From a virus: a stretch of 64,000 nucleotides of DNA. The translations under genes were made by a program, and so were the position numbers. Positions 18,544 to 34,529 of the stretch are shown here, piece by piece. How positions within the stretch are numbered: position 1 is the first letter of the stretch; each line of letters starts with the position of its first letter. The notes below the pieces were generated by a model. It worked only from the letters and a program-made list of their open reading frames with translations. It did not search any database and was not told where the DNA came from. The stretch covers positions 6,528 through 70,527 of the IMG/VR virus record IMGVR_UViG_3300032213_002833. One strand, given 5' to 3'.

Positions 18544-18598
18544 AACCTTTATTTTTATATCCCAATATACGAATCAAAAATCCAATAACCAAGGATTT

Positions 18599-19036
18599 TT
18601 AATAAATTGGTTGCTCCCAAGAAGAAGTTACATTATTCCATAATTGTGAAATTAAATTCCAGCTTCCACTAGGATAAGTTCCTCCATTTATAATAAATGG
18701 GTTTAATATACCTGGACCATATAATTCTTCAGGGGTTAGGGAAGGATTTGAATTAACTGTAACAATTAAAGGTCCTGTTCCTCTTAAATATACATTATCG
18801 GGGTTAATTGGTATAGTTGGAGTAAAGTCAAAGCTTGAATTTCCCGGGGGAATAACAGCACCTAAAATGTAAGAAGAGGTAACTACCCAATTAGGGTCAA
18901 TGTTTACAAAATTTTCAAGAGTACCAACTATATTTTGTAATGAAGTTGAATCGTATACTTGTTGAAAGTTACGAATAGTTTCAATTACAAAGTAAACTGA
19001 TCCTGATGATGGGTTTGAGAATGTAAAAGTAGACAT
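18599..19036 (-). CDS. hypothetical beta-rich protein, possibly virion-associated
   Basis: 145 aa, S/T/P/N-rich; upstream ATATTTAT motif. Confidence 0.6.
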   Translation of the reverse strand: MSTFTFSNPSSGSVYFVIETIRNFQQVYDSTSLQNIVGTLENFVNIDPNWVVTSSYILGAVIPPGNSSFDFTPTIPINPDNVYLRGTGPLIVTVNSNPSLTPEELYGPGILNPFIINGGTYPSGSWNLISQLWNNVTSSWEQPIY

Positions 19037-19057
19037 TTATCGTTTTGACGATAAATA

Positions 19058-19300
19058 TTATTTTTTTACGTTCCAACTAAAGAAGTTGTTAAGCCATTTT
19101 TTACGGCCCGTACAATTACATTCTTGTAAACCAAACCATTCTTTGTATCGTTCTTGGGTAATACCAAATCTAGTTAATGTTGATTCAACAACATCACCCA
19201 AACCACGTCTTTGAAGTTCTTCTTGGGTCATTTCGTGGTTAATTCCTTTTGATTGTAATTCATTGATTACTTGGTCCATTTCTTGTCTTACGTCACTCAT
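19058..19300 (-). CDS. hypothetical protein (GLGD...CxC..RK..LN type)
   Basis: 'GLGDVVE...ECNCTGRKKWLN', a recurrent small phage protein pattern. Confidence 0.65.
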   Translation of the reverse strand: MSDVRQEMDQVINELQSKGINHEMTQEELQRRGLGDVVESTLTRFGITQERYKEWFGLQECNCTGRKKWLNNFFSWNVKK

Positions 19301-19454
19301 AATTTTTATTTATTATAAATATGTTTGACTTAAGTCTAGTTCGTGCTCGTAAAAATAAAGACAACACCACTTTGGGTTGTCACATTTTAGTTTTACCATT
19401 TTCCCACCATAACATCCTACTTGAAGTACGGTTGCCATGCCTGAAAATCTGGTT

Positions 19455-19667
19455 TTAACTCTGTCTCCTACTTTTAGTTTTTCCATATTTTTCCTTTATT
19501 TCGTCTAATATGTTGGTTAAAACGCCTTTCTTAAACGCATCATAGTCCTCCTGGTTGTCCTTAGGAAACGCACTTAAATACGTATTATCTATTGGATCTA
19601 ACGGGTAAAGATAAAATCCTTCCCTAATTTTTTTCTTTTGTTTTCTTGGTATTCTAAATTTTGTCAT
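19455..19667 (-). CDS. hypothetical protein
   Basis: 70-aa ORF abutting the upstream gene. Confidence 0.55.
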   Translation of the reverse strand: MTKFRIPRKQKKKIREGFYLYPLDPIDNTYLSAFPKDNQEDYDAFKKGVLTNILDEIKEKYGKTKSRRQS

Positions 19668-19931
19668 TTAAAGACTATTAAATTCATTTTGTAATTCATC
19701 TCTCTCAAGTTTGGCTCTCTCTAGTTCTTTAGTTAACATTTCCTTTACAAAATCTTTAGATGAATATCTTAATTCCATTTCACTGTTTCTCCCACATGAC
19801 CCTACTGAATAACTGATTTTAACTAATCTAGAACAAGTGGCTTTTGCACGGATTAAATTATTTATATACTTGGTAAGTTCATCAATTTGATCATTTAATT
19901 TTTTTGCTTGGTAAAATGTTTCATTTTTCAT
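19668..19931 (-). CDS. hypothetical protein
   Basis: 87-aa ORF with promoter motif at about 19950. Confidence 0.6.
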   Translation of the reverse strand: MKNETFYQAKKLNDQIDELTKYINNLIRAKATCSRLVKISYSVGSCGRNSEMELRYSSKDFVKEMLTKELERAKLERDELQNEFNSL

Positions 19932-20515
19932 ATAACCTGTTTTATTTTAAATATACGTATATCCCTTATCGATGCCAAAGATTCTTATAAAAAAAGAGAT
20001 TTGATTTTTATGGGTTTTTATCCCCCTTTTTCATTTTGGAAAATGTGAGTGTGTTGTGGGGATATATAGTTATATACAATGTCGATGGGTAAAGATCGTT
20101 TACGATCTGTGAAGTGGTCTAAGTGGCGTTCCTCACCACCCCACCCCGTATTGACATCGGCGCGCGTGGGGCCATATGGCTATATCCATACCATATATAT
20201 ACGGCCGTACGGCACCAGGAATACCACCCTTACACCTTGGATCTCTAAAACCACAGACTCACCATCTCACAGGCTCCATGGTCTGTGATCTTGCCACCAT
20301 ACCATTTTCAAACCAGTAAAACGCCAATTTACCCTCCGGTGTCAATATTGTGATTGTGGCTGTATCAGTTAAGCACCCATCGACATTTTGGATGCGTGAT
20401 TGGTTTAATTGGATAAATGTGTCTATACTCATGGCCTCCGAAAACCCGATTGCTCGGGCTCACAGGGCTGTATAATTAAAAAAGATAAAACCGTTATGAA
20501 GCGGTATCTTAATCG

Positions 20516-20584
20516 TTGTCAGGACAGGATTCGAACCTGTTTATAGCACGCTCCGCATATAGGCACCAATTCCGCCACCTGACT
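20516..20584 (-). ncRNA. tRNA-like element 1 (no canonical anticodon arm)
   Basis: AGTCAGG-TGGCGGAATTGGTGCC-TATATGCGGAGCGTGCTATAA-ACAGGTTCGAATCCTGT-CCTGACA: acceptor, D-like and T arms present. Confidence 0.7.
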
Positions 20585-20592
20585 ATATTTTT

Positions 20593-20700
20593 CTAAATCA
20601 CATTTACCATCAATCCATAAATCACAAATCCAATCATCCCACCTATTACCAAAGCACCAATCCCTACTTGCCCTATATTTTCAAACCCTAACTTTTTCAT
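20593..20700 (-). CDS. small membrane peptide (35 aa)
   Basis: MKKLGFENIGQVGIGALVIGGMIGFVIYGLMVNVI read by hand. Confidence 0.5.
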   Translation of the reverse strand: MKKLGFENIGQVGIGALVIGGMIGFVIYGLMVNVI

Positions 20701-20701
20701 A

Positions 20702-20809
20702 TTACAATATAATATTTTTCAATACATTAAATAAAAGTACCCCTGCAATTCCACCTAGTATAATCGCAATTCCCCAAGCTTGTGTTTCAGTTAATCTCAT
20801 TTTCATCAT
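20702..20809 (-). CDS. small membrane peptide (35 aa)
   Basis: MMKMRLTETQAWGIAIILGGIAGVLLFNVLKNIIL; promoter motif at about 20825. Confidence 0.5.
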   Translation of the reverse strand: MMKMRLTETQAWGIAIILGGIAGVLLFNVLKNIIL

Positions 20810-20838
20810 TTTTATTTATACTACAATATACGAATTTC

Positions 20839-21009
20839 TTATTTACTCTCCAATTCCAAACTTAATTTAACAGCTAAACTATTTATCACTTTAATTTTTT
20901 CTAATTTAGCCTTAAAACCTCTTCTACTATCTAATTCTTTATTGGTTTGACTTAATACTAAATCTAAACCGTCAACCAATAAATCTAATTCTTCTAAACT
21001 TAATTTCAT
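20839..21009 (-). CDS. small hypothetical protein (56 aa)
   Basis: MKLSLEELDLLVDGLDLVL...LELESK; own promoter motif. Confidence 0.55.
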   Translation of the reverse strand: MKLSLEELDLLVDGLDLVLSQTNKELDSRRGFKAKLEKIKVINSLAVKLSLELESK

Positions 21010-21064
21010 ATTTACCTTTTTAATTATACTGAAATATACGAATTAAATGTTAAATGAGGTAGTC

Positions 21065-21388
21065 CTAAGCTGCTACCTCATTATTATCAGTTTTATTCAT
21101 TTTAGGTCGTCCTCGTTTAACTAAACCTAACTCTCTTTTCATTTCTAACTCCTTAATCCTTAACTGTCTTACACTATTTTCATTTACAGGTCGTCCTAAT
21201 TTTAACTCCCCATTTATCTTTTTACTCTCTAACTCTTTAATCCTTAACTGTCTTACACTATTACTTTCAACAGGTCGTCCTCGTTTTAACTCTCCATTAC
21301 TTCTTTTTAACTCTAATTCTTTTAATCTTAATTGTCTTACACTGTTCTCATTTACAGGACGTCCTAATACTTTTACTTCATTTTTCAT
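21065..21388 (-). CDS. AT-hook tandem-repeat DNA-binding protein
   Basis: three ~29-aa repeats (GRPVNENSVRQLRIKELE...) plus a final KRGRPK. Confidence 0.75.
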   Translation of the reverse strand: MKNEVKVLGRPVNENSVRQLRLKELELKRSNGELKRGRPVESNSVRQLRIKELESKKINGELKLGRPVNENSVRQLRIKELEMKRELGLVKRGRPKMNKTDNNEVAA

Positions 21389-21474
21389 AACTTTACTTTT
21401 TTTAATTTAACTTATTTTCTTAACTTATTTATACTACAATATACGAATTACTTATTTATTTTACTATTCCTTAA

Positions 21475-21681
21475 CTATTCAACAATAAAATTTAACTCAC
21501 AATCACCTTTAATTTCAATAATTTCATAACTTCCATCTAATTTCATTTCATTAACCAATTCATCAAAATCAAATAATTCAAACATATCACCAAAATTTTC
21601 AACAAATTCCTCTTTAGAGTCATAAACAGTCATACCAAAATTTTCCTCTAAATAACAACAAATAAATTTACTTTTTTTCAT
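21475..21681 (-). CDS. acidic hypothetical protein, C-poor coding strand
   Basis: 68 aa, no Ala/Pro/Gln/His; own promoter. Confidence 0.65.
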   Translation of the reverse strand: MKKSKFICCYLEENFGMTVYDSKEEFVENFGDMFELFDFDELVNEMKLDGSYEIIEIKGDCELNFIVE

Positions 21682-21940
21682 TTTTTTTACCTTTTTAATT
21701 ATAATACAATATACGAATTACTTATTAATTATACTATTCCTTAATTAATTAGGTCTAATAATACAATCTTCAAATCTAAATAAAGGATTATACATTATTT
21801 CACAAGCCATTTCCTGAATTAAAAGTAATCCCATTAACCTTAATTCCATTTGTTCTTTTTTACTCATCTTATCTTATTTTAATTATACTGAAATATACGA
21901 AAGCCCTTTTAATTAAGGGCTTCCATTTATTATTATTTTA

Positions 21941-22357
21941 TTAACACTCCCATTTAATCTTTAATATACAAATTCCTTCATTATATATACTTTCTTCTTT
22001 ATAATCTAAAAAACTACCTTCAAAACCACTTTCTTTCATATATCTATAACTCCTCCAACTATAATCATTTAATTTATTAAATTCAATTTTAAAACCTTCA
22101 AATTCTAAATTTTCTAAATATTCTTTAACTTTATTAAATACTTCATTATATAATTTTACTCCAAAATCATTTCTCTCTCTCATTTCATTACTCACAATAC
22201 CTCCCTTCAATCTTCTAACAACCCCTTCTTTAACACCATATAAATCATTAAAACTATAACCAAATCTAACTCCTAATTCTTTATATAATTTTTCAATTAT
22301 TTCATTTCTTACTATTAAACTTCCTTTAGTTTTTTCAACATCAATTTTACCAAACAT
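21941..22357 (-). CDS. hypothetical protein; coding strand has one cytosine
   Basis: 138 aa; the only + strand G is at 22329; promoter and GTTATG start. Confidence 0.75.
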   Translation of the reverse strand: MFGKIDVEKTKGSLIVRNEIIEKLYKELGVRFGYSFNDLYGVKEGVVRRLKGGIVSNEMRERNDFGVKLYNEVFNKVKEYLENLEFEGFKIEFNKLNDYSWRSYRYMKESGFEGSFLDYKEESIYNEGICILKIKWEC

Positions 22358-22444
22358 AACTTTTACTTTTTTAATTATTTATCTTTTTAATTATAATACA
22401 ATATACAAATTATTTTTTAATATTAATAGTCCTTTATTAAACTA

Positions 22445-22466
22445 AAAAACCCCTATAAAAGGGGTC
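22445..22466 (-). terminator. intrinsic terminator
   Basis: ACCCC-TTTTATA-GGGGT followed by a T run on the minus strand. Confidence 0.6.
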
Positions 22467-22491
22467 CTTTAATTAATATTTTATATATTAT

Positions 22492-22905
22492 TTATTTAAA
22501 CTTCTCTATTAAATCCTTTATTAATTCTTTAATATTCATATCCTCTAAACTACTTAATATAATTTCTTTTTCAATATCTTTATATAAACTAAAACTATTT
22601 CCTTTACCATCTTTTAAACTAATATTAAATAATTTTCCTTTATCATTAAAATTTCTATTATTTTTATTAATATAAAATACTCTTATATCATCTTCATCAA
22701 ATTTATTTTCTATTTTTCTAATTTCTTCTTTTAATAAATCTACTTTCTCTTCTAATTCACTAATTTCTTTTACTTTATTTAAAAATAAATCTTTATTTTC
22801 ACTTTTTTCAAATAATTCTTTACTTTTATTAACTTCAATTAATTTAATATTATTAACTACTTCATTAACAACTACATCTAATTCAATTTTACTTAACTTT
22901 TTCAT
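22492..22905 (-). CDS. hypothetical coiled-coil protein; coding strand has no cytosine
   Basis: 137 aa with no A/P/Q/H/T; no G on the + strand across the ORF. Confidence 0.75.
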   Translation of the reverse strand: MKKLSKIELDVVVNEVVNNIKLIEVNKSKELFEKSENKDLFLNKVKEISELEEKVDLLKEEIRKIENKFDEDDIRVFYINKNNRNFNDKGKLFNISLKDGKGNSFSLYKDIEKEIILSSLEDMNIKELIKDLIEKFK

Positions 22906-22981
22906 AACTTTACTTTTTTTAATTTAACTTTTTTAATTATAATACAATATACAAATTTCTTTTTAAATAACCTATTCCTTT

Positions 22982-23293
22982 TTACCATCTAGGTTCAACC
23001 CAACTACACTCAATATCACTTCCTATTACTTTAAAAGTATATTCTAAAGGTTCATCATTAAATTCTCCCATATACTTTATTTCACCACCTTCATTTTTAA
23101 TAAACTCTCTTACTTCAAAAAAGTTTTTAACATCTTCTTCATCATATAAATCATCATCTCCTTTTTCACATTCTTCAAACAAAAAACTTACTTTACTACC
23201 TACTTTATATTCATTATCATTCCCACAACAAAAATCATAAATCATTTCTTCAAAATAATTAATAACTTTTTCATTTAATTTTTCATTTTTCAT
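22982..23293 (-). CDS. acidic hypothetical protein, C-poor
   Basis: 103 aa; own promoter at about 23320. Confidence 0.7.
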   Translation of the reverse strand: MKNEKLNEKVINYFEEMIYDFCCGNDNEYKVGSKVSFLFEECEKGDDDLYDEEDVKNFFEVREFIKNEGGEIKYMGEFNDEPLEYTFKVIGSDIECSWVEPRW

Positions 23294-23859
23294 CTTTTAT
23301 CTTTTTTTAATTATACTACAATATACGAATTAACTTTAATAATTACTATTCCTGTGTTTAGTTTTTCTAGTATATTTCTTTCTATTCCTATAGATGTTAG
23401 GTCTAGTAGCTTTGATAATTTCTTCCTGAGTGATAATAATTGTTTTCATTTTTCTTACTTGTAATATACGAAAGACATTTTAATAAGCCAAGTCCTGAGC
23501 AGAGAGATGGCCGACAAGTAATTGTCAGCTTCTTTTAAAGTTCATTATGTTAGACAATTGAACGTTGCGTTGTGGTTACTGGAGGTTCTTTCTGTGCCCT
23601 AAGTCTGTTGCGTTCCCTGTTCTATTTCTAGCGTGTTCACTGATACATATGTGAAGGTAATGCCCTTTTACCGCTTTTCCAACCACTTTTTAATTTATTT
23701 TTAATTACTTTTACCCCCCCTCCCCCCATTTTACCGCAAGGGGGACGGGGGGTTCATGTTTTTTGTATATATTTTTGGAAAAAGGTACAAAAGGACGTGG
23801 TTGATGAATGGGAGGGTTAGACCCTGACAATTCTCGTCCCCTATTTAGTGATCTGTATT

Positions 23860-24120
23860 TTCCACATATTATAATTTTCATTTCTTGACAATTGACATTC
23901 CTCATTTGGTAATTGATATTCTTTGACGATTTCTATTCCCATGACGATTTTCATTATTTATTGGTGATTTCCATTGGTAATTTATATTTCCATTTTATAT
24001 TTACAAAACATAAATACAATTCATATTTACATTTTCCCATTATAATTTTCATTTACTTTTGATAATTGACATTTCCCATGTTGATTTTCATTCCACACAT
24101 TGACGATTTTCATTTTGCGT
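23860..24120. repeat. degenerate direct repeats in a non-coding region
   Basis: attataattttcattt...aattgacatt twice (about 23868 and 24039); tgacgattt three times. Confidence 0.55.
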
Positions 24121-24196
24121 TTATCTGTTGATAATTTCCGTTTTGGCTTAAGCTAAACTAATGTTTAGATTAGTTCATGATAATCGTTGTTGATTT

Positions 24197-24310
24197 CTAT
24201 TCTTCGTTGTTTACACGTTCACTTTCATTATTTCTAACATCATACCTTACATACAATATAACCATCACTAAACAAAACACATTCCAAACCATAACTAATT
24301 CTCCTTCCAT
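24197..24310 (-). CDS. small membrane peptide (37 aa)
   Basis: MEGELVMVWNVFCLVMVILYVRYD...EE; AAGGTTATG start. Confidence 0.5.
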   Translation of the reverse strand: MEGELVMVWNVFCLVMVILYVRYDVRNNESERVNNEE

Positions 24311-24315
24311 AACCT

Positions 24316-24408
24316 TTATTTATATTTTCTTCTTTTATTTCTTTTATTTATTTCATTCCCCACCAACCCAATCAACAACACTAAATTAATAATTTCTATT
24401 ATTAACAT
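24316..24408 (-). CDS. small membrane peptide (30 aa), C-free coding strand
   Basis: MLIIEIINLVLLIGLVGNEINKRNKRRKYK; promoter at about 24435. Confidence 0.45.
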   Translation of the reverse strand: MLIIEIINLVLLIGLVGNEINKRNKRRKYK

Positions 24409-24460
24409 TTTTTTCTTTATTTATATTATACTGAAATATACGATCTCTATTTTATATCTG

Positions 24461-24652
24461 TTAGTCCTCTAATGTTTCTTCTACTGTAATTACTTCACTT
24501 CCCCAATCATATTGTTCATCAAATGTTATTCCTTCACTTCGATGTTCTCCGGTTTGTAATTTTTCAAGTGCTTCCTCTAGTGAATCCGCTTCAATAAGAT
24601 ATTCTATTGTTGCTTTTACTTGTACCTCTGTTTCAAATCTGAATTGTCCCAT
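24461..24652 (-). CDS. hypothetical protein
   Basis: 63 aa 'IEADSLEEALEK'; own promoter. Confidence 0.65.
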   Translation of the reverse strand: MGQFRFETEVQVKATIEYLIEADSLEEALEKLQTGEHRSEGITFDEQYDWGSEVITVEETLED

Positions 24653-24699
24653 GTTTTTCTTTATTTATACCTTAATATACGAAATCTCTTTAAATAATC

Positions 24700-24936
24700 T
24701 TAGTCCTTTAACCAAACATTTTCATAAAATTCTCTTAACATTTTACCATGTTCTGTTTTAACATAGTTTCTTCTTAAATCAAATAAATGTTGTAAACATC
24801 TATTATATGTCCAAAACTTCTCTACTGATTTATTTGTTTTACTATTGTAGAATCCCGCTTCACTTTCACCCCATTCTTCAACTAAACATTTAACTATTTC
24901 TAATTTTGATTCAAATATATCTTTTAATTCTTTCAT
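24700..24936 (-). CDS. hypothetical protein
   Basis: 78 aa; own promoter. Confidence 0.65.
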   Translation of the reverse strand: MKELKDIFESKLEIVKCLVEEWGESEAGFYNSKTNKSVEKFWTYNRCLQHLFDLRRNYVKTEHGKMLREFYENVWLKD

Positions 24937-24992
24937 TTTCTTAATTTATACTACAATATACGAAATTTATTTTAATAAGCTTAGTCCTTAAT

Positions 24993-25223
24993 TTAAAAAT
25001 CCTTATGTTTAGATACTTGTATTAGAGTAATAAGTTCTTTTTCACTTTCTTTTACCTCAAATCCACCATTGTTGTGTGTTGTTACTCCTATTCTGGAGTG
25101 TTTTGGTTTATCTACTGATCCGTAGCTTCTTGTTTCTTCTACTTCATAAAAATGTCCTATCATATCTACATTTATATAAATAGGAGTATTTCCTTTTAAT
25201 GGTGTTACCTTAATCAATCTCAT
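24993..25223 (-). CDS. hypothetical protein, weakly FlbD-like
   Basis: 'MRLIKVT...IYINVDMI...FEVKES'. Confidence 0.6.
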   Translation of the reverse strand: MRLIKVTPLKGNTPIYINVDMIGHFYEVEETRSYGSVDKPKHSRIGVTTHNNGGFEVKESEKELITLIQVSKHKDF

Positions 25224-25682
25224 AACCTTTATTTTCTTAATTTATACTTTAATATACGAAATCTTTTTTATATTTTTTATTCCCCTAAAATTTCATCTAA
25301 TTGATCAGTAATATATTCCTTTACATCACTATATTCAAACCCATCCTCTAACATTTGATCTGTTATGTCATTAATTGCTTCTTTTAAATTTACAAATGAA
25401 ACAAAGCTCAACATGTTTTCAATTCGTTCTCTTTTTTCAAAATCCATAATCTTTATTTATTTAATTTTAACTTCAATTTCAAATCATTAATAGTCATTTC
25501 TACAAAACCTGCAGTCATAATAGGTGTTTTCCCATTCTGCTCTGCTTTTTCAATCTCAGCAACCATGTTTGCTTGTACTTTATCTAATCCATCACTGATT
25601 AAAAACTTCTCAAAACCATTTAATTTACTCATAACCTTTATTTTTTTTCTCTTTATTTATACTGTAATATACGAAAGCAGCT

Positions 25683-25925
25683 TTAATTAGCTGCTTCCTC
25701 TTTTACTTTTTCTATAATCATCCTTATCGCTTCTTGATTTTCGGGTAATGAATTATCTGGTTTAATTTTCAATTCTGTCATTAAATCGTTTATTTTTGCC
25801 CATTCCCCTCTTGATTTTGAAGTAATGGTATGTTCTTTTCCGAACAATTTTTCATCTACTTTTACTTGTAAAAATGCTTCTGCTTCTTTTTGTTGAATTA
25901 CTTCAATCATTTGTTTTTTTGTCAT
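25683..25925 (-). CDS. hypothetical protein
   Basis: 80 aa; own promoter. Confidence 0.65.
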   Translation of the reverse strand: MTKKQMIEVIQQKEAEAFLQVKVDEKLFGKEHTITSKSRGEWAKINDLMTELKIKPDNSLPENQEAIRMIIEKVKEEAAN

Positions 25926-25975
25926 AACTTTCTTTTTTATTTATACTGTAATATACGAAATCTTTTTTATATCTT

Positions 25976-26362
25976 CTATTCCTCTATTGAATCAGTATCA
26001 TCTGCAGGATAAAATTCACTACTTACAACAACATCATCTTCCTCTTCCTCTTCAACAAATTCACTCAAAATATCTGTGATGTGATCCATTACCCCATGAA
26101 CATCAATTTGAATATCATCAATTGAAATTGTGTTCCCATAATCAATACTAAACGTAACATCATCTTTATCAACCAACTCATCACTATTACGATCCAAACA
26201 ACGCTCAATTTTACCTGAAATTTCATCTGCTAATTCCTGAGTAATGCCTGTTTGTTTCTCGGGTGTGATTTGTTCAATCAATAAAATTATTTTATCAATA
26301 TCAACTGTTGATGATAATGCTTTTACTGTTGTTAGCTGTGCTACTAATTCTTCTTTTTTCAT
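25976..26362 (-). CDS. acidic hypothetical protein
   Basis: 128 aa; own promoter. Confidence 0.7.
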   Translation of the reverse strand: MKKEELVAQLTTVKALSSTVDIDKIILLIEQITPEKQTGITQELADEISGKIERCLDRNSDELVDKDDVTFSIDYGNTISIDDIQIDVHGVMDHITDILSEFVEEEEEDDVVVSSEFYPADDTDSIEE

Positions 26363-26415
26363 AACTTTTTTTTAATTTATTTTCTTTATTTATACTGTAA
26401 TATACGAAAGGGAGC

Positions 26416-26799
26416 TTACGCTCCCTCTTCCTCTAATACATTTTGTAAATAATTAACCATTGGAGATTCAACTCTACCTACTAACCAAATACCATGTCTA
26501 GTTAAACAATAAACATACTCTATTCCACTACCAAAACCATCTTCAAACAATTCCTCTACATCGTTAAATGATTGAAATTTTAAATCTTCACCTCTATCTC
26601 TATGATATGCTACTGTATCTATAGTTGATTCTCCTAGTGAACTGATATCACCTAGTTCTAGTAATTTCTCTAATTTTTCTTGATCGTAGTGTTCAAATAA
26701 CTTTTTACCTACTGAATCTACATACCCATCAAAATGACAATAAATTGAATCTACTGTTTCGTCTTGATTTTCAATTGCTATTCTACTTCTTGTTGCCAT
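26416..26799 (-). CDS. conserved phage protein (YCHxDGY type)
   Basis: 'MATRSRI...SIYCHFDGY...GDISSL...EYVY'. Confidence 0.75.
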   Translation of the reverse strand: MATRSRIAIENQDETVDSIYCHFDGYVDSVGKKLFEHYDQEKLEKLLELGDISSLGESTIDTVAYHRDRGEDLKFQSFNDVEELFEDGFGSGIEYVYCLTRHGIWLVGRVESPMVNYLQNVLEEEGA

Positions 26800-26860
26800 A
26801 ATTTTTCTCTTTATTTATACTATAATATACGAAATTTCTTTAATATCTTCTATTCCTCTG

Positions 26861-27439
26861 TTAATCTTCTCTTGTTATACTTTCTAAACCAAACAATTCA
26901 GTTAATACTGTTTCTTCCATTTCTTCATAACATGTAAGCTCCATTGATGCTAATATCTCAGCTACAGTTGATGAATTTTGTACCTTTTCAATAGCTTTCA
27001 TACAATGGTTAGTGTTAGTTTTGATTGTTTTAATAATATCTTCAATTGTATCAACTTTTTCCTCTCGATCTTCATTGATTACTATTCTGATATCTTGTAA
27101 CATGTCAAATTCAAAGTTTTCAATATGATTTTCTAACATATCAATTACTCGTTGCTTACCTTCTTTAAAATTAAACTTCATAACTTTTTCTTTTTTTATT
27201 TCTTCAAATATACGATCTTCTTTTTGCTGAGAAACTTCCTCTACTTTTGTAAATTGATATTCAAAATAACCACCATCTGCTTGTTCACCTGATAATTCAT
27301 CTCTAATCCATTTTACAAAAACATATTCCTCATCATTCCATCCAATGTAATACTCTTCAACTATAGCTGTTGCTCCTTTTTTAGCTGCGTATGTACCTTC
27401 TCCTTCAAATTCTACTATGTCTCCTTTTTTAAATTTCAT
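26861..27439 (-). CDS. hypothetical protein, probably two fused modules (second begins MKFNFKEG)
   Basis: 192 aa; SH3-like 'KFKKGDIVEF' N-terminus; internal promoter-like aatatacg at about 27206. Confidence 0.6.
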   Translation of the reverse strand: MKFKKGDIVEFEGEGTYAAKKGATAIVEEYYIGWNDEEYVFVKWIRDELSGEQADGGYFEYQFTKVEEVSQQKEDRIFEEIKKEKVMKFNFKEGKQRVIDMLENHIENFEFDMLQDIRIVINEDREEKVDTIEDIIKTIKTNTNHCMKAIEKVQNSSTVAEILASMELTCYEEMEETVLTELFGLESITRED

Positions 27440-27479
27440 AACCTTTATTTCTTTTATACTGTAATATACGAAAGCCCTT

Positions 27480-28244
27480 TTATTTAAGGGCTTCCTGTTT
27501 TGAAAATTTATCTAACAATTTATCTAATCCTAATGTTTCAATCTCAGCATCATGTTTTTTATATAGGTATTCTACATTTCTGTAAGTATCTAACTTAAAT
27601 TGAACATAACTACCTGATTCAAATTTAACTTCAATAACATCAAATGTACCACTATGTTTTCCCCAATCACTTTTAACAGTTATTGTAGCATTTGGATACA
27701 ATTTTGTATACTTTTCAACTGTACTTAGTTTTAAACCGTTTTTCCTTTTATATTCCTCCAACAATTGTTCTTGACGGGAATCAAATGTTTTTAGTTTTTC
27801 AAGTAATGTTGCAGGTTTAATGTAGCGATAATTATCTTGAATAGTACTACAATTAACTTTATCTCTTTCAAATTCAATATTGAATGTAGAATCACGCAAT
27901 TCATTTGGGTTTGAATATGTACCAAATCGTTTTCCTTTCAAAAAAATACCCCCATCAATTGTTTTATATGTTATTTCAGCTTTAAAGTCAGTTTTGTTAT
28001 AGGTATAACCTATTGTCATTTCATTAGTAACAATTTCTATTTTAAATGTATTAACAAAATGAACATCCTTAACAAAACCATTGTTGATAAGTAATTGTTC
28101 GCGTTGCTTATTTATACTTTCATTTGTATTAGCAATATCTTCTCTAATTTTGATAAATTCTGCTATTTTTTGTTCTTGTTCAGGTGTAAATAATATACCT
28201 GCAAACATGTCTAGTTGATTTGGGTCTTTAATTTCTTCGTTCAT
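27480..28244 (-). CDS. hypothetical protein
   Basis: 254 aa; own promoter. Confidence 0.7.
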   Translation of the reverse strand: MNEEIKDPNQLDMFAGILFTPEQEQKIAEFIKIREDIANTNESINKQREQLLINNGFVKDVHFVNTFKIEIVTNEMTIGYTYNKTDFKAEITYKTIDGGIFLKGKRFGTYSNPNELRDSTFNIEFERDKVNCSTIQDNYRYIKPATLLEKLKTFDSRQEQLLEEYKRKNGLKLSTVEKYTKLYPNATITVKSDWGKHSGTFDVIEVKFESGSYVQFKLDTYRNVEYLYKKHDAEIETLGLDKLLDKFSKQEALK

Positions 28245-28297
28245 AACTTTTATTTTCTTAATTTATACTTTAATATACGAAATTTCTTTTAAATTAA

Positions 28298-28537
28298 CTA
28301 TTCCTCTTCTAAATAAGTTAGGGTAACTGACATATAATTAGGTATCCAAAATGTTTGTCCTGCACAATGAGCATATTGATCATTTGATTCGTGTTTTGTT
28401 ACTTCAAAGTAACTTCGTTCACTATCATAGTACAACAATCTCCCACGCATTGTAGGAGATATATTTGTTGAAACGAGTCTACCTATAGCTGATTCTAAAT
28501 TAGGTATAGTAGCTTCTCGTGGTGTGTTTCGTCTCAT
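28298..28537 (-). CDS. hypothetical protein
   Basis: 79-aa ORF. Confidence 0.6.
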   Translation of the reverse strand: MRRNTPREATIPNLESAIGRLVSTNISPTMRGRLLYYDSERSYFEVTKHESNDQYAHCAGQTFWIPNYMSVTLTYLEEE

Positions 28538-28641
28538 TTTCTAAGACTTTTTATAACTGCAACAACTATATTACCACAAACGGATAATAAAATTACTGTT
28601 CCCATAAATGTCCAAAATGAACTAAATATTGTTTCTATCAT

Positions 28642-28845
28642 TTATTTTTTATTTTTATATGATGCATATGCAACTAAAAGCGCTATTCCCCCAATCAATA
28701 CAACTGCTATAATTGGTATCCAAAGCGGGGCTGTAACCCACCACCAACTCCAAGTAATGTTGTTTGTTAATTTTAGAACCATGAATATAAGGAATAGTAT
28801 CATACCAATTCCAATTCCGCCTGATGTGTTTTGTTTGTTGCTCAT
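28642..28845 (-). CDS. small membrane protein (WSWWWVTAPLWIP type)
   Basis: 'LKLT..ITWSWWWVTAPLWIP', common in phages. Confidence 0.75.
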   Translation of the reverse strand: MSNKQNTSGGIGIGMILFLIFMVLKLTNNITWSWWWVTAPLWIPIIAVVLIGGIALLVAYASYKNKK

Positions 28846-28850
28846 TTTAT

Positions 28851-29246
28851 TTATTTATTTTCTTTAATTAACCAACCTACTTTAATCAAATGAAGTAAAA
28901 ATGCTCTAAATTCCTCTAAACCTTGTTTATCAAACATTTCATTTGCATCCTTCATTGAGTCAGGATTACCTTCTAACACGCCCCACATAAAATTTGGATT
29001 ATCTATTTCATCTTCTACCCAATCTTCCCTATCGTCAGAGCGTTTATCTGTTATGTTAATATATGGATCCGGGTAATGATCATCTAATGTTTCAGCATCA
29101 TCTTTCATGATTATATTTGCTGTAAAACACCAATCACTTGATTCCCAGGTGCGTTCCATACTAACAGTAATTTCTTTATCTTCAATTTCTGTTTCAGGTG
29201 TTTCTCTAACATACCACACACCATTTACTTGAATTCTTTCTTCCAT
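28851..29246 (-). CDS. hypothetical protein
   Basis: 131 aa; own promoter. Confidence 0.65.
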   Translation of the reverse strand: MEERIQVNGVWYVRETPETEIEDKEITVSMERTWESSDWCFTANIIMKDDAETLDDHYPDPYINITDKRSDDREDWVEDEIDNPNFMWGVLEGNPDSMKDANEMFDKQGLEEFRAFLLHLIKVGWLIKENK

Positions 29247-29302
29247 TTTTTTAATTTATGCTTTAATATACGAAATCTCTTTTGCTAATAAACGTCCTTT
29301 TT

Positions 29303-29339
29303 TAAAAAACCTACCGTGTGTTTGTAGCCACACGGTAGG
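29303..29339 (-). terminator. intrinsic terminator downstream of tRNA-like element 2
   Basis: CCTACCGTGTG-GCTACAAA-CACACGGTAGG-TTTTTT. Confidence 0.8.
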
Positions 29340-29365
29340 AAAAGAAACGGTTATGAAGCGTTTTG

Positions 29366-29448
29366 TAGTCAGGGCAGGACTCGAACCTGCACTACACCTG
29401 GTATACACCATATTAAACTAGGAGCGTGTTTCATTACACCACCTGACT
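29366..29448 (-). ncRNA. tRNA-like element 2
   Basis: AGTCAGG/CCTGACT-A acceptor, GTGT/ACAC D stem, GCAGG-TTCGAGT-CCTGC T arm; non-canonical centre. Confidence 0.7.
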
Positions 29449-29603
29449 AACCCCGAATTTTCTAGTAGCGGCACCTTTACGCGGCCGTCGGTTCTACTTG
29501 CGATGATCGTTGTTCCTTATTCTCCTACCCTTTTATTTCGGAACTAACCTGCTTATCTTTAAATACGAGTTTCTCAAGGGTACAGGTTATGTTTGTTTTT
29601 TGC

Positions 29604-30407
29604 TTAGGCAGCTATAAATTCAGCTGCCATTGCAAATAGTTTTTGGTTAATTTCTAGGTCTTGTTTGAAATTCTTCACTTTACGTGCTTTTCTAATTCTA
29701 GTACCTGACATGTATTGGAAATCACCTTCCAATATTTTCTCTTGAATCACATTGAACACTGACCATAAATCACTACCTTTATCTTCAGGTCGTGTTGGTT
29801 CAAGTAACAAATCTAAATCAATTTTAACTGAATCAATTTGTTCTTCTGTGAAGCGAGTTGACAATGCTTTTTTAGCTAATTCTTTTGCTTGCTCTTCACT
29901 CAATTTGATTGCTTTCATTTTATTCATTGATTCAACTGTCAAAGGCAATTGTTCAACCATTTCACGGATTTGTGATTGCAACTCTTCAAATGTATAGCCC
30001 ATATGGCGAATTCGAACATTTTCAAATTCTTGAGTGGAAATAACTAAACCGTTTTCACACACAATTCGGAAAATTCCGGCTGTAAATGTAAATGCATTCT
30101 TTCCATCATTGCTATTGGTAACAAGAATTTGGGGAAAAACATCATCTCCATCCGCTCCATTGATTACAATGTCTGGGTTACGGAATACAACTAGGTGTTT
30201 TTGGAAACCTTGCCCTTTACGTGCTTTAACTTGTTTAGCATCTACCACTTTGAATCCCAATTTTTCCATATCCTCAATTACTTTAAATGTTGGGATGTGT
30301 GTAAACTTGCTTGATACACTTGGACTTGTTGTTTCAGTGAAAATTGAATTTGCTCTTTCTTTAATCTCACTTGTTTTTAAAAAACCATCTTTGCTTAAAT
30401 CTAACAT
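29604..30407 (-). CDS. DUF932/DUF945-family protein
   Basis: 'SSKFTHIPT', 'FQKHLVVFR', 'NSNDGKNAF...GIFRIVCENGLV', 'LWSVFNVIQE'. Confidence 0.8.
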   Translation of the reverse strand: MLDLSKDGFLKTSEIKERANSIFTETTSPSVSSKFTHIPTFKVIEDMEKLGFKVVDAKQVKARKGQGFQKHLVVFRNPDIVINGADGDDVFPQILVTNSNDGKNAFTFTAGIFRIVCENGLVISTQEFENVRIRHMGYTFEELQSQIREMVEQLPLTVESMNKMKAIKLSEEQAKELAKKALSTRFTEEQIDSVKIDLDLLLEPTRPEDKGSDLWSVFNVIQEKILEGDFQYMSGTRIRKARKVKNFKQDLEINQKLFAMAAEFIAA

Positions 30408-30486
30408 AACTTTTCTTTTTATTTAACTTATTTTCTTAATTTATACTTCAATATACGAACTTTCTCCTGTGAAGCCAATTCCTCTT

Positions 30487-30825
30487 TTATTTGTAAAACT
30501 TACTGTCGTCTATTTCAAAATCATCTTCGTCATCTACCTTGTAGTAGTCATCTTCTTCATCCAAATCATCTTCAATATCATCTTCTTCATCTCGGTATGG
30601 AGGTAATAGACCTGCCTTCTCCACAATCCAGAAAACTCTATCCTTGTATAAATCAATTGATACACCATTTATTTCAGTGATACCATTTATAGTTAATAAG
30701 GCCAATTCAGCTATTAGTTTACATGTGATTTGATCAACTTGTTCTGTTGTTAATTGATTTGCTTTAAATTTATTTTTTAAATCTAAATAATCTACTTCAA
30801 TTGTGTGTTTTTGTTTTTTTGCCAT
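30487..30825 (-). CDS. hypothetical protein with acidic tail
   Basis: 112-aa ORF. Confidence 0.65.
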   Translation of the reverse strand: MAKKQKHTIEVDYLDLKNKFKANQLTTEQVDQITCKLIAELALLTINGITEINGVSIDLYKDRVFWIVEKAGLLPPYRDEEDDIEDDLDEEDDYYKVDDEDDFEIDDSKFYK

Positions 30826-30830
30826 AACCT

Positions 30831-31079
30831 TTATTTTACTATTCTACTTGTTAACAAATTAATTAATGCTTGTACTTCACCAAATTCAGTGAAACGTATT
30901 GCTGGGTCTGTATTGAATACTTCTACATACCAATTATCGTCTTTAATTTCGTCATTTGATCTAGTAATGAATGCTAAACCATCTACAATATCTAAAGCAT
31001 AATAGTATGATTCATCTTCTTCATGTTCTTTCATTTCTTCCTTTTGGAATCTTAAAAGTTGTATTTCTCGTTCTGTCAT
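30831..31079 (-). CDS. hypothetical protein
   Basis: 82-aa ORF. Confidence 0.6.
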   Translation of the reverse strand: MTEREIQLLRFQKEEMKEHEEDESYYYALDIVDGLAFITRSNDEIKDDNWYVEVFNTDPAIRFTEFGEVQALINLLTSRIVK

Positions 31080-31309
31080 AATTTATTATTTAATTCGTCT
31101 CTAATAATTGCTGCTAATTCGTAATCTTCTTCTTCAATAACATGTTGTAATATATCATCTATTAATGCTCTAAAATCACCATTAAATTCTGTTTCTAATA
31201 GAAATTGAAATGCTAATTTATCGTCAATACACAATTTACTATCTCTAATAATTGGGTGGAAATCAATATTGCTTCTTGCTATTTGATTTAAAATTCTTCT
31301 TTCGTTCAT
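31076..31309 (-). CDS. hypothetical protein with UVR-like motif
   Basis: 'EEEDYELAAIIRDEL'. Confidence 0.65.
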   Translation of the reverse strand: MNERRILNQIARSNIDFHPIIRDSKLCIDDKLAFQFLLETEFNGDFRALIDDILQHVIEEEDYELAAIIRDELNNKL

Positions 31310-31365
31310 AACCTTTTTTCTTACTTGAAATATACGAAAGCCCTCTTACGAGGGCTATTCCTCTT

Positions 31366-32121
31366 TTAAATTGCTATTGCATATTGATTTACTAAGCTGA
31401 ATAATTGTTTATTTAATCTAATATCTTCATTCATGTTATTAACATCATGTGTTAAGTTTTCTTGGATTCTGTTGAATACCGTCCATAAATCGTTACTTTC
31501 ATCTTCAACTCTATTAACTGTAAGTAAATCATCAATGTTAATATCTTCTAAATCATTATATCTTAAACGAGCTGCTTCAGTAGCTAACTTACGCATATCT
31601 TCAATTGATAATCCTTTATGTTTCATTTCATTAACTTCAGTTAATAATTTATCAGTTTTATTAGTTACTGAGGCAATGAAGTGATCTAGATTCATATAGT
31701 TAACTTCAATATGTTTGATATTCTCTGATTCAGCGTGTTGATCAAATCTTACTAAACCATTTGTACATACCTGTCTAAACATACCTAAACTCATTTGTAA
31801 TGGTTTTGCTCCGTTACAACTATTTGAAATAGTAATTGATGTATATGCTTCATCTTTACCTTTACTATTTTTAATAGCAAAATCAGGATGATGCATCTGA
31901 ACGTAATTATTTAATATTTTACGATTTCTACCTCGTTGTTCATCAACTCCTTTTAGTTGCCATCCTTCATGTTGTAGTTTTGTAATTACATCTAATGTTG
32001 GAATATAAAATTCCTTTGTTTTAATTTTTTGAACGTTTCTGATGTTGTTTACATCTAACGAATTAGCAAACGCAATTGCTTTGTTGATATCATTATCAAC
32101 GGGGATAAATTTGTACTTCAT
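31366..32121 (-). CDS. DUF932/DUF945-family protein (second paralog)
   Basis: 'NSCNG...GMFRQVCTNGLV', 'DLWTVFNRIQENL'. Confidence 0.8.
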   Translation of the reverse strand: MKYKFIPVDNDINKAIAFANSLDVNNIRNVQKIKTKEFYIPTLDVITKLQHEGWQLKGVDEQRGRNRKILNNYVQMHHPDFAIKNSKGKDEAYTSITISNSCNGAKPLQMSLGMFRQVCTNGLVRFDQHAESENIKHIEVNYMNLDHFIASVTNKTDKLLTEVNEMKHKGLSIEDMRKLATEAARLRYNDLEDINIDDLLTVNRVEDESNDLWTVFNRIQENLTHDVNNMNEDIRLNKQLFSLVNQYAIAI

Positions 32122-33048: not shown

Positions 33049-33282
33049 TTAAATATTACTGTTATAATCTTCTCTAATCTCTTGCATTTCTTTTTTATAT
33101 AAATCTTTATCAAAATAAATTATAACCATAATTAATCCAAATAAAATCTGTATAATAACACCCCATATAATAAAACGTTTAATCAACTTAATATTTGTTG
33201 GATTTTTTAATATTTCAGTTATTAATATAAATAAACCAAATCTAACCCCAACCGCTAAAATAAATTTTTCTACTTTATTCAT
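33049..33282 (-). CDS. membrane protein
   Basis: two hydrophobic stretches. Confidence 0.6.
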   Translation of the reverse strand: MNKVEKFILAVGVRFGLFILITEILKNPTNIKLIKRFIIWGVIIQILFGLIMVIIYFDKDLYKKEMQEIREDYNSNI

Positions 33283-34528: not shown

Positions 34529-34529
34529 T

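What the first reader, a model, noticed from the sequence alone, without database searches (positions are those of the whole stretch)
21920..22991. Cytosine-free genes: about 1 kb of coding strand written almost entirely in A/G/T
Seen: the + strand has only 6 G in 1072 nt (22329, 22429, 22461-22464), with G-free runs of 409 nt (21920-22328) and 527 nt (22465-22991). ORF 22492-22905 (137 aa) has no C in its mRNA and no Ala/Pro/Gln/His/Thr; ORF 21941-22357 has a single C. The two promoter copies inside the block change CGTATATT to TGTATATT, losing their C too. The remaining Cs sit at apparently constrained sites (one Thr codon, a GGACT box, a terminator stem). Flanking ORFs 21475 and 22982 are also C-depleted. 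The coding strand keeps plenty of G, so low GC content does not explain it. Inference, three options: (a) a strand with no G cannot hold any palindromic restriction site containing a G:C pair, which would suit first-injected DNA as in the site-depleted leading ends of T7 and T5; (b) C-less transcripts need no CTP and would escape ddhCTP chain termination by prokaryotic viperins or C-requiring RNases such as MazF (ACA); (c) a G-free template evades guanine modification such as DarT1 ADP-ribosylation. The encoded proteins are then candidate first-wave anti-defence factors.
Basis: partly seen in the sequence, partly recalled or inferred. Interest (0 to 1): 0.9.

Follow-up and report, generated by a model that had tools for sequence, protein, structure and literature searches.

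The report
Phage genes written without cytosine
A freshwater phage carries a small block of early genes whose messages contain almost no cytosine and whose proteins therefore use only 15 amino acids, a rule that related phages have kept through long divergence and whose cause is still unknown.

Summary
The + strand of 21920-22991 has 6 G in 1072 nt, with G-free runs of 527 and 409 nt. Shuffles give at most 106-152 nt.

It is the core of a sharply bounded module of nine consecutive minus-strand genes (20593-23328). Synonymous C there is 5 of 308, against 18% elsewhere.

Selection maintains it:
- 11 of 12 orthologues of ORF 22492 have 0 C despite at least 276 substitutions.
- 118 of 120 database homologues lack Ala, Pro, Gln, His and Thr.
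- Distant homologues of the ORF 21941 family with normal composition exist.

The phage belongs to an Immutovirus-like group. A near-identical contig carries DpdA, QueC, QueD and FolE. In the cultured relative every guanine is replaced by a 7-deazaguanine (PMC10516641).

My best reading, at 0.35, is a template strand kept free of hypermodified G, so that expression cannot be stopped by G-directed damage. C-less RNA explanations remain close rivals. Restriction-site avoidance is disfavoured. The protein functions are unknown.

The parts
20593..23328 (-). C-minimised early-gene module: nine consecutive small genes with their own promoter copies.
   Evidence: Third-position C/(C+T) is 0-0.095 in each gene (5 of 308 in all), against 0.181 (1000 of 5520) in ORFs of 150 aa or more elsewhere. 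The neighbouring genes 23336-23449 (0.24) and 20259-20432 (0.48) are normal. Ser codons are AGT in 36 of 37 cases, against 153 of 752 in the background.
22492..22905 (-). Family A gene, 137 aa. It has 0 C and no Ala, Pro, Gln, His or Thr.
   Evidence: There are 278 database homologues, and 118 of the best 120 lack A/P/Q/H/T. Of 12 orthologous DNA copies, 11 have 0 C and one has 1 C. AlphaFold2 gives pLDDT 76: two long helices plus a small alpha/beta part.
21941..22357 (-). Family B gene, 138 aa. Its single C is in a Thr10 ACT codon at 22329.
   Evidence: There are 147 database homologues. Among the best 120 the only recurring C-requiring residue is about one Thr. Nine orthologous DNA copies have 0-2 C. 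AlphaFold2 gives pLDDT 93 and pTM 0.84. No fold match at E<0.001 in PDB or BFVD.
22982..23293 (-). First gene of the module, 103 aa, acidic (pI 4.2), 6 C.
   Evidence: Five of the six Cs sit at amino-acid-determining positions in two Pro codons and one Thr codon; the sixth is the third position of an AAC codon.
21475..21681 (-). 68-aa acidic gene (pI 4.1), 3 C.
21745..21867 (-). 40-aa gene with 8 C, none at a third codon position.
21065..21388 (-). 107-aa basic protein with GRPVxxNSVRQLRxKELE repeats. It has 21 C, of which 1 is at a third position.
   Evidence: In relatives the in-module copies have 16-26 C, while a paralogue outside the C-poor stretch has 44-48 C.
20593..21009 (-). Three short genes: 56 aa, and two hydrophobic 35-aa genes, at the downstream end of the module.
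   Evidence: Third-position C/T is 2/19, 0/11 and 0/12.
22925..22981 (-). Promoter copy in front of family A: AGGAAT, then TTTGTATATT, then TATAAT. The consensus C is replaced by T.
   Evidence: The same T form occurs in 10 of 12 relatives. Coordinates are approximate; the core motif ends at 22954.
22379..22435 (-). Promoter copy in front of family B: AGGACT, then TTTGTATATT, then TATAAT.
   Evidence: The T form occurs in 9 of 9 relatives. The C at 22429 is in the AGGACT box.
22444..22467 (-). Intrinsic-terminator-like hairpin (CCCC...GGGG followed by a T-run) after family A. It holds 4 of the 6 Cs in the finding.
   Evidence: Read from the sequence. In several relatives an equivalent GCCC/GGGC hairpin overlaps the next promoter.
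21900..21923 (-). Hairpin GCCCTT...AAGGGC after family B, overlapping the next promoter copy.
23880..24145 (.). Array of about eight iteron-like direct repeats just upstream of the module.
   Evidence: Families D1 (4 copies of 20 nt) and D2 (4 copies of 19 nt). A comparable stretch lies upstream of the C-free gene of relative G002.
23713..23753 (.). G/C hairpin with 14-nt arms (93% complementary) in a GC-rich non-coding island.
   Evidence: Inverted repeat I5; composition.
20516..20584 (-). Degenerate tRNA-like element with a shortened anticodon arm, at the downstream edge of the module.
   Evidence: Rfam tRNA model at 24.2 bits, below the gathering score of 29, E 0.09. ARAGORN did not call it.
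33049..33282 (-). Isolated second C-poor gene, 77 aa, with its own promoter copy.
   Evidence: 9 C; third-position C/T is 1/35.

Best explanation
Shown:
- 20593-23328 is a discrete module of small early genes on the minus strand. Each gene sits behind a copy of a repeated promoter.
- The module is under strong, long-lasting purifying selection against C in the sense strand, which is the same as G in the template strand.
- The pressure acts on nucleotides. It removes every synonymous C. In the two most extreme genes it has also removed the five amino acids whose codons need C.

Inferred, most likely mechanism:
- The phage belongs to a lineage that replaces the guanines of its DNA with a bulky 7-deazaguanine derivative.
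- In injected DNA the template strand of this module would then be the only long stretch made entirely of ordinary A, C and T.
- A template with no G, and so no modified G, cannot be cut, de-based or otherwise marked by host enzymes that act on guanine or on deazaguanine. Examples are deazaguanine-specific glycosylases, guanine ADP-ribosyltransferases and modification-dependent nucleases. It also offers RNA polymerase no modified base to read.
- The module could therefore still be transcribed end to end while the rest of the genome is under attack. On this reading it supplies the first-wave proteins, possibly inhibitors of that attack.
- Each template G carries its own risk of ending the transcript. 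That would explain why Cs are purged one by one down to zero, and why they are tolerated only in terminator stems after the stop codon.

The confidence of 0.35 is for this specific mechanism. I put the general statement, that selection acts on the nucleotide, at about 0.9.
For: Nucleotide-level selection:
- Family A: 12 orthologues, 411 aligned columns, 234 variable, at least 276 changes, and only 1 variable column contains C. Family B: 9 orthologues, 208 variable columns, 2 with C. In control genes from the same loci, 52 of 156 and 46 of 95 variable columns contain C.
- All 13 related loci have 0 C (one has 1 C) over the match to the family A gene.
- 118 of the best 120 family A homologues have no A/P/Q/H/T.
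- The residual Cs in the module sit almost only at first and second codon positions.
- These are real genes. An open frame of 137 codons in C-free sequence has a chance of about 1e-9 (my arithmetic from the composition). Family B folds at pLDDT 93.
- The constraint is not intrinsic to the fold. One search examined 47 profile hits. I dropped 11 hits under 100 aa and one 2307-aa hit. Of the remaining 35, 20 have at most 1% A/P/Q/H/T, 8 have 1-7% and 7 have 10-17.5%.

Link to deazaguanine:
- Contig G004 overlaps window 61131-64000 at 95.9% nucleotide identity. It carries a DpdA homologue (E 8e-42 to the immuto DpdA), QueC (Pfam 8e-63), QueD/PTPS and FolE.
- DpdA homologues are present in 4 of 5 related records searched.
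- In cultured Flavobacterium phage immuto the dG peak is absent and fdPreQ1 makes up 345,000 per million nucleotides (PMC10516641, passages read).
- Immuto itself has one non-homologous C-minimised gene at the syntenic place: third-position C/T is 0/61.
- Host glycosylases that excise 7-deazaguanines and break the DNA are described in a preprint (10.1101/2025.10.29.685425, passages read).

The promoter C is also lost in front of the zero-C genes: 19 of 21 promoter copies in relatives and 2 of 2 here. In immuto gp127 the consensus Cs of the promoter are lost too.
Against: - Complete G replacement is not sufficient. Campylobacter phage CP220 has no G- or C-free run of 152 nt or more. Cellulophaga phage phiST has no C-minimised gene; its longest runs are 63-83 nt.
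- Within the same group, the complete 173.8-kb genome G001 carries DpdA but its longest C-free run is 85 nt. G007 has no run of 152 nt or more.
- The pathway genes were seen in a 96%-identical contig, not in this contig, which ends at GroEL. No chemistry is known for this phage.
- Templates carrying 7-substituted 7-deazaguanines inhibited bacterial RNA polymerases in vitro mainly at the promoter, with no sign of an elongation block (PMC4838386, passages read). This weakens the 'polymerase reads unmodified template better' variant.
- Other early genes behind the same promoter family have ordinary template G.
- The loss of the promoter C is ambiguous. Those positions can lie in read-through transcripts or in a terminator U-tract.
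- Nothing shows that the encoded proteins counter any defence.
Confidence: 0.35

Rival explanations
1. The constraint acts on the RNA. The transcripts need no CTP and contain no C, so they can be made when CTP is scarce. They also cannot be ended by ddhCTP from viperin-like enzymes or cut by C-requiring RNases such as MazF-type toxins. The module would encode the countermeasures.
For: - A cost per C explains purging down to zero, and also why Cs are tolerated in terminator stems beyond the stop codon.
- The module is discrete, as expected for a set of 'antidote' messages.
- CTP supply and viperin have been proposed to drive C loss in a coronavirus (bioRxiv 10.1101/2020.06.20.162933; search listing and start of the abstract only).
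Against: - There is no lineage-specific reason. Such threats face most phages, yet four literature searches found no report of C-free phage genes.
- The promoters look like host Bacteroidota -33/-7 promoters. As I recall, without checking here, prokaryotic viperin products were shown to act on phage-encoded polymerase.
- Neighbouring early genes behind the same promoter family use C normally.
- All Cs are avoided rather than any one motif. An ACA codon remains in gene 20702-20809.
Confidence: 0.25
2. The aim is Rho-proof or structure-poor messages. Rho loads on C-rich, G-poor RNA, and an RNA without C can form no G-C pairs. The transcripts would then escape premature termination and stay open for Shine-Dalgarno-independent initiation in a Bacteroidota host.
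For: - The sense strand keeps G at 16-25% while C falls to 0.
- Predicted folding energy is -0.09 to -0.12 kcal/mol per nt for five module genes, against a mean of -0.155 for 13 other genes.
- The leaders are A-rich with no clear Shine-Dalgarno sequence.
Against: - Both effects depend on many Cs acting together. The last few Cs should then be nearly neutral, yet they are purged even at the cost of five amino acids.
- The drop in predicted structure is modest and overlaps the range of ordinary genes.
- Other early genes manage with 6-12% C.
Confidence: 0.1
3. The cause is mutation, not selection for C-lessness. Very heavy transcription, or R-loop formation beside a replication origin, leaves the non-template strand single-stranded. 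Cytosine deamination would then drive C to T until only the Cs that the proteins need are left.
For: - Relative to neighbouring early DNA, the lost G on the + strand is mostly replaced by A.
- The boundaries coincide with transcription units.
- Residual Cs are the ones that determine amino acids.
- An iteron array lies just upstream.
Against: - Near-zero C at free sites would need a local C-to-T bias more than a hundred-fold above the rest of the genome: 5 of 308 here against 18% elsewhere.
- Two conserved, well-folding protein families have given up five amino acids entirely across more than 100 diverged members. Mutation pressure alone does not achieve this even in the most AT-rich genomes (established knowledge, not tested here).
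- C content is a mosaic that follows gene families.
Confidence: 0.1
4. This is first-injected DNA kept free of restriction sites. A strand without G cannot hold a palindromic site with a G:C pair, as proposed for the leading ends of T7 and T5.
For: The block cannot contain such sites, as follows directly from the sequence. A GC-rich non-coding island with repeats lies just upstream and could mark a special place in the genome.
Against: - The block is internal in this contig and in a relative's contig.
- C content follows gene families.
- The lineage carries a guanine-replacement pathway. In immuto that pathway already blocks enzymes with G in their site (PMC10516641).
- Avoiding sites does not require removing every C or giving up five amino acids.
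Confidence: 0.03

Closest known systems
Complete guanine replacement by 7-deazaguanines in phage DNA (DpdA3 phages: Flavobacterium phage immuto, Cellulophaga phage phiST, Campylobacter phage CP220)
   Same: Same phage group as immuto: the baseplate wedge protein is 46% identical and the gene order is syntenic. A 96%-identical contig carries DpdA, QueC, QueD and FolE.
   Different: The known system is a genome-wide chemical change. Nothing in the passages I read of PMC10516641 mentions genes whose template strand lacks G. CP220 and phiST do not have them.
Virus genome composition shaped by a host attack on one base or motif (C loss in coronaviruses ascribed to CTP supply, viperin or deaminases; CpG avoidance; restriction-site avoidance)
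   Same: A nucleotide-level pressure overrides codon choice, and partly amino-acid choice.
   Different: Those cases are statistical depletions over whole genomes. Here one base is excluded completely from a 0.4-1 kb stretch of coding sequence, in a discrete module, on one strand only.
ACA-less messages that survive MazF (a motif-free mRNA as an escape from an mRNA interferase)
   Same: The logic is the same: a message that lacks the target cannot be cut.
   Different: A single trinucleotide is avoided there. Here every C is avoided, including in untranslated parts.
G-less cassette of in vitro transcription and the G-poor omega leader of tobacco mosaic virus
   Same: These are stretches of nucleic acid written with three bases.
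   Different: The cassette is synthetic. The leader is a 68-nt untranslated region. Neither encodes a folded protein. Both are recalled from memory, not checked here.
Szybalski's transcription-direction rule, or purine loading of the sense strand
   Same: Sense strand has G over C and A over T; module messages are 57-71% purine.
   Different: The usual skew is a few percent. Here the G/C skew is 1.0 and it ends abruptly at the module borders. The rule itself is recalled from memory.

Membership tests
7-deazaguanine DNA modification system (DpdA plus the preQ0 pathway) | A DpdA-family DNA transglycosylase gene in the genome. | tested here: inconclusive
   Not present in the 70.5-kb record, which ends at GroEL. 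It is present in G004, which overlaps the window at 95.9% nucleotide identity (E 8e-42 to the immuto DpdA), and in 4 of 5 related records.
7-deazaguanine DNA modification system (DpdA plus the preQ0 pathway) | FolE, QueD, QueE and QueC genes. | tested here: inconclusive
   G004 has QueC (Pfam 8e-63), QueD/PTPS (4e-15) and FolE (62% identical to immuto's). QueE was not detected in G004, but it is present in other close relatives. No QueF or DpdN was found.
7-deazaguanine DNA modification system (DpdA plus the preQ0 pathway) | Modified base present in virion DNA. | not testable with these tools
   Known only for cultured immuto (PMC10516641).
Restriction-site-poor leading end (T7 or T5 type) | Lies at the genome end that enters first. 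| tested here: inconclusive
   The block is internal in two contigs. The assembled contigs that were laid cannot show molecule ends.
Restriction-site-poor leading end (T7 or T5 type) | Depletion is of recognition sites, not of a whole base. | tested here: not met
   All Cs are removed, including non-palindromic contexts and codon third positions.
Motif-free message escaping an mRNA interferase (ACA-less type) | One short motif is absent while the base is otherwise used. | tested here: not met
   The base itself is absent: 0 and 1 C in the two genes. A residual ACA codon is tolerated in gene 20702-20809.
Transcription-associated strand asymmetry | Moderate G-over-C skew that scales smoothly with expression. 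| tested here: not met
   The skew is complete, the borders are sharp and the pattern follows gene families.
Bacteroidota-type host promoter (-33 TTG, -7 TAnnTTTG) | Two boxes with the right sequence and spacing. | tested here: inconclusive
   Immuto copies read GTTGC, a spacer, then TATATTTAG, which is close to the recalled consensus. Copies in this window have TATATT(G/A/T) but AGGAAT/AGGACT in place of TTG. No transcription start data.
Small acidic DNA-mimic anti-defence proteins (Ocr or Ugi type) | Strongly acidic small early protein with a DNA-mimic fold. | tested here: inconclusive
   Two of the nine module proteins have pI 4.1-4.2, while families A and B have pI 5.5 and 6.4. Models of A and B match nothing at E<0.001. 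The acidic ones were not modelled.

The most novel reading that the evidence does not exclude
These would be 'lesion-proof genes'. A phage that rewrites all its guanines keeps a small set of first-wave genes in a three-letter code, so that their template strand contains no guanine of any kind. Host enzymes that hunt guanine or deazaguanine could then shred the genome but could not stop these messages. The 15-amino-acid proteins they encode would be the inhibitors of those enzymes. This would be a new principle of counter-defence that works through the composition of the gene rather than through its product.
Probability: 0.2. Interest if true: 0.95.

Novelty: categorically new. Interest (0 to 1): 0.86.

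Why it matters
- **A nucleotide rule that overrides the protein alphabet.** Two conserved protein families are built from 15 amino acids, and one of them folds with high predicted confidence. I know of no described case where one base is wholly excluded from natural protein-coding genes and that exclusion is kept through hundreds of substitutions. Four full-text searches found none.
- **An unknown cost per base.** Something in these infections makes each single C in the message, or each G in the template, costly. Finding out what would reveal either a new layer of the arms race around modified DNA or a new RNA-level vulnerability.
- **It can be tested.** The cultured phage immuto and its Flavobacterium host carry a milder version, so the question is open to experiment.
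- **Natural reduced-alphabet proteins.** The families are ready material for work on how few amino acids a fold needs.
- **A search criterion.** Single-base-free runs on the sense strand could be used to look for further such modules.

Tried and rejected
**Function of the proteins.** Pfam and PHROGs gave nothing below E 0.001 for ten small ORFs of the region. The best were 0.006-0.007 to an unknown-function family and to a spanin model. Foldseek of both models against PDB, and of model B against BFVD, gave no match at E<0.001; all TM scores were 0.43 or lower. The ESM Atlas gave no hit at 0.9 or above. Immuto gp127 is not related to family A or B.

**A tRNA-supply explanation** (avoiding codons whose tRNAs are depleted) is rejected. 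NNC codons read by the same tRNA as NNT are avoided too, and so are Cs in untranslated parts.

**A DNA cytosine-deaminase-proof gene** is rejected as an expression-level explanation, because the template strand is itself rich in C.

**Nearest records.** Megablast of 20500-25500 against the phage collection found no match. tblastn of family A against phages found no match.

**Context of the normal-composition homologues** could not be recovered. Two scans of viral contigs found no locus. The cluster members lie mostly on short unnamed contigs, except one contig of 135 kb that I could not fetch.

**Sequencing runs.** Only assembled contigs were available, so no molecule ends, transcript starts or strand could be read. 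An RNA-library run holds contigs 85-95% identical to parts of ORF 21941 and neighbouring genes. This is a weak hint of expression of relatives, and DNA carry-over is not excluded. Parts without cover mean nothing.

**Null model.** The 1-kb block shuffle keeps the depletion and was dropped as a null.

Full report
**1. The observation**

The + strand of 21920-22991 contains 6 G in 1072 nt (A 367, C 188, T 511). The G-free runs are 527 and 409 nt. The next longest G-free runs (215, 203, 171 nt) lie beside them, and no other base is absent for more than 77 nt anywhere in the window. Whole-window shuffles give a longest G-free run of 68 on average (maximum 106 in 500). Shuffles within 5-kb blocks give 85 (maximum 152).

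All long ORFs lie on the minus strand, so G-free here means a C-free sense strand. ORF 22492-22905 has 0 C and ORF 21941-22357 has 1 C.

**2. The real extent**

Per-gene counts show that the finding is the core of a sharply bounded unit. Nine consecutive genes from 23293 down to 20593 have C at 5 of 308 pyrimidine-ending third codon positions. The ratio is 0.181 (1000 of 5520) in ORFs of 150 aa or more elsewhere. The gene just upstream (0.24) and the gene just downstream (0.48) are ordinary.

Within the module, Ser is AGT in 36 of 37 codons, against 153 of 752 in the background. Leu is TTA or TTG in 76 of 79 codons. Genes that still hold 6.5% C carry it almost only in Pro, Arg, Gln, Thr and Ala codons. 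One further isolated gene, 33049-33282, shows the same habit.

**3. These are genes, and the rule is conserved**

An open frame of 137 codons in sequence with this composition has a chance of about 1e-9 (my arithmetic). Both proteins have large families: 278 and 147 database hits. Family B folds with pLDDT 93 and pTM 0.84, and family A with pLDDT 76.
- Among the best 120 of each family, 118 family A members contain no Ala, Pro, Gln, His or Thr at all. Family B members carry only about one Thr.
- At the DNA level, 13 related loci were recovered. The match to family A holds 0 C in 12 of them and 1 C in the most distant, which is 39% identical. C-free runs reach 952 nt.
- In codon alignments, family A (12 copies) has 234 variable columns of 411 and at least 276 changes, with C in one column. 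Family B (9 copies) has 208 variable columns, 2 with C. Control genes from the same loci have C in 52 of 156 and 46 of 95 variable columns.
- C content goes with the gene family, not with position. The repeat protein 21065-21388 has in-module copies with 16-26 C and an out-of-module paralogue with 44-48 C.
- A profile search over 1.84 billion representatives gave 47 hits. I dropped 11 hits under 100 aa and one 2307-aa protein. Of the remaining 35, 20 have at most 1% of the five residues, 8 have 1-7% and 7 have 10-17.5%. The fold therefore does not forbid these residues. The C-less state is imposed from the nucleotide side, and only in some lineages.

**4. Context**

The record is a 70.5-kb viral contig, estimated 44% complete.
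[quoted passage not shown] Gene order is shared from GroEL through the glycosyltransferases to the baseplate.
- The group is abundant: at least 592 viral contigs encode a related GroEL. Near-identical DNA occurs in many lake and freshwater runs.
- A repeated promoter precedes about 30 small genes between 18.5 and 37.4 kb. It reads AGGA(A/C)T, about 17 nt, TTCGTATATT, 3-4 nt, then TATAAT or TATAAAT.
- Immuto has the counterpart GTTGC, a spacer, then TTCnTATATTTAGGTATCAATAATTAAAAC. This resembles the Bacteroidota -33/-7 promoter as I recall it, and suggests host polymerase.
- Upstream of the module lies a GC-rich non-coding island with about eight iteron-like repeats and a 14-bp G/C hairpin. A degenerate tRNA-like element lies at the downstream edge.

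**5. The deazaguanine lead**

Immuto encodes FolE, QueD, QueE, QueC, QueF, DpdA and a formyltransferase. Its virion DNA has no dG peak; all G is fdPreQ1 (PMC10516641, passages read).

Our contig stops just short of where those genes lie. Contig G004 overlaps the window's last 2.9 kb at 95.9% identity. It carries a DpdA homologue, QueC, QueD and FolE. Other close relatives carry QueE as well.

In such a phage the G-free strand of the module would be the only long stretch of wholly unmodified DNA strand, and it is the template strand.
- A preprint reports many host glycosylases that excise 7-deazaguanines and break the DNA.
- Immuto itself has one strongly C-minimised gene at the syntenic place: gp127, with 5 C and third-position C/T of 0/61. 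It is unrelated to families A and B, and its promoter copy has lost consensus Cs.
- Two further relatives, G002 and G006, each have an unrelated 63-aa gene with 0 C in the same neighbourhood.

**6. What speaks against that lead**
- CP220 and phiST, both reported as fully G-replaced, have no such genes.
- The complete relative G001 has DpdA but no C-free run above 85 nt.
- In vitro, substituted deazaguanines hindered bacterial polymerases at promoters, not during elongation.
- The two strands are complementary, so every sequence observation fits 'no C in the RNA' as well as 'no G in the template'.
- The one asymmetric clue is the loss of the promoter C in front of the zero-C genes: 19 of 21 copies in relatives and 2 of 2 here, against 29 of 34 C forms overall. 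This clue is weakened by possible read-through and by overlap with terminator U-tracts.

**7. Weighing**

That selection acts on the nucleotide is, in my judgement, about 0.9 likely.

For the agent, I put 0.35 on a guanine-free template that cannot be damaged or misread. It is the only reading with a lineage-specific reason, and it predicts a cost per site.

| Reading | Weight |
|---|---|
| Guanine-free template | 0.35 |
| C-less RNA (CTP independence, ddhCTP, C-requiring RNases) | 0.25 |
| Rho or RNA structure | 0.10 |
| Mutation alone | 0.10 |
| Site-free leading end | 0.03 |
| Something not yet thought of | the rest |

Predicted folding energy of module messages is only about a third weaker than that of other genes. 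The proteins have no recognisable relatives. Two of the nine are small and very acidic.

**8. Novelty**

Four full-text searches found no description of natural C-free genes in phages. The nearest ideas are whole-genome base or motif depletion in viruses, motif-free messages that escape MazF, and the synthetic G-less cassette. None of these combines complete exclusion of a base, a discrete gene module and a reduced protein alphabet. I therefore rate it categorically new as a phenomenon. The mechanism remains open.

Noticed in passing
window 18572-37410 (minus strand), also 43097: About 30 copies of one promoter-like unit (AGGAAT/AGGACT, about 17 nt, TTCGTATATT, 3-4 nt, TATAAT or TATAAAT) stand before small genes. 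In several copies the spacer is a G/C hairpin that looks like the previous gene's terminator. Copies inside the C-poor module mostly end in GTATAATTAAAAA; copies upstream mostly end in GTATAAATAAAG.
   Followed up: partly
window 23880-24145 and 23713-23753: There are two families of four iteron-like repeats and a 14-bp G/C hairpin in a GC-rich non-coding island just upstream of the module. This may be a replication origin or a regulator-binding array. A similar stretch precedes the C-free gene in relative G002.
   Followed up: partly
window 20516-20584 (minus strand): A tRNA-like element has good acceptor, D and T arms but a shortened anticodon arm. Rfam scores it at 24.2 bits, below threshold, and ARAGORN does not call it. 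It sits at the 3' edge of the module, before a terminator-like hairpin.
   Followed up: partly
window 20080-20260: A GC-rich stretch without a convincing ORF lies downstream of a conserved 57-aa gene (20259-20432) that has orthologues in three relatives. No Rfam match.
   Followed up: no
window 21065-21388; L011, L012, L015, L019, L023: A basic protein is built of GRPVxxNSVRQLRxKELE repeats. Relatives hold two paralogues that differ two-fold in C content according to where they lie.
   Followed up: partly
window 29365-29448 and 41946-42069 (minus strand): ARAGORN reports an odd tRNA with a two-base anticodon loop call at 29365-29448. Rfam also finds a 124-nt tRNA match at 41946-42069, possibly intron-bearing. 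Six ordinary tRNA genes (Ala, Ser, Leu, Asp, Thr, Glu) lie at 40140-42470.
   Followed up: no
window 33049-33282 (minus strand): An isolated 77-aa gene has 9 C and third-position C/T of 1/35. It lies 10 kb away from the module, behind its own promoter copy.
   Followed up: partly
window 1-5904 (minus strand): An open frame of at least 1968 aa runs off the window. It has no Pfam match at E<1e-5. It lies among baseplate and tail genes.
   Followed up: no
window 45097-54890 and 62387-63934 (minus strand): A cluster of glycosyltransferases (GT2 and two GT1) and a phage GroEL, syntenic with immuto.
   Followed up: partly
window 21972: In three lake metagenome runs the contigs read G instead of A here. 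This restores the Thr found at that place in most family B members. The window's phage has therefore lost one more C than its close relatives.
   Followed up: partly
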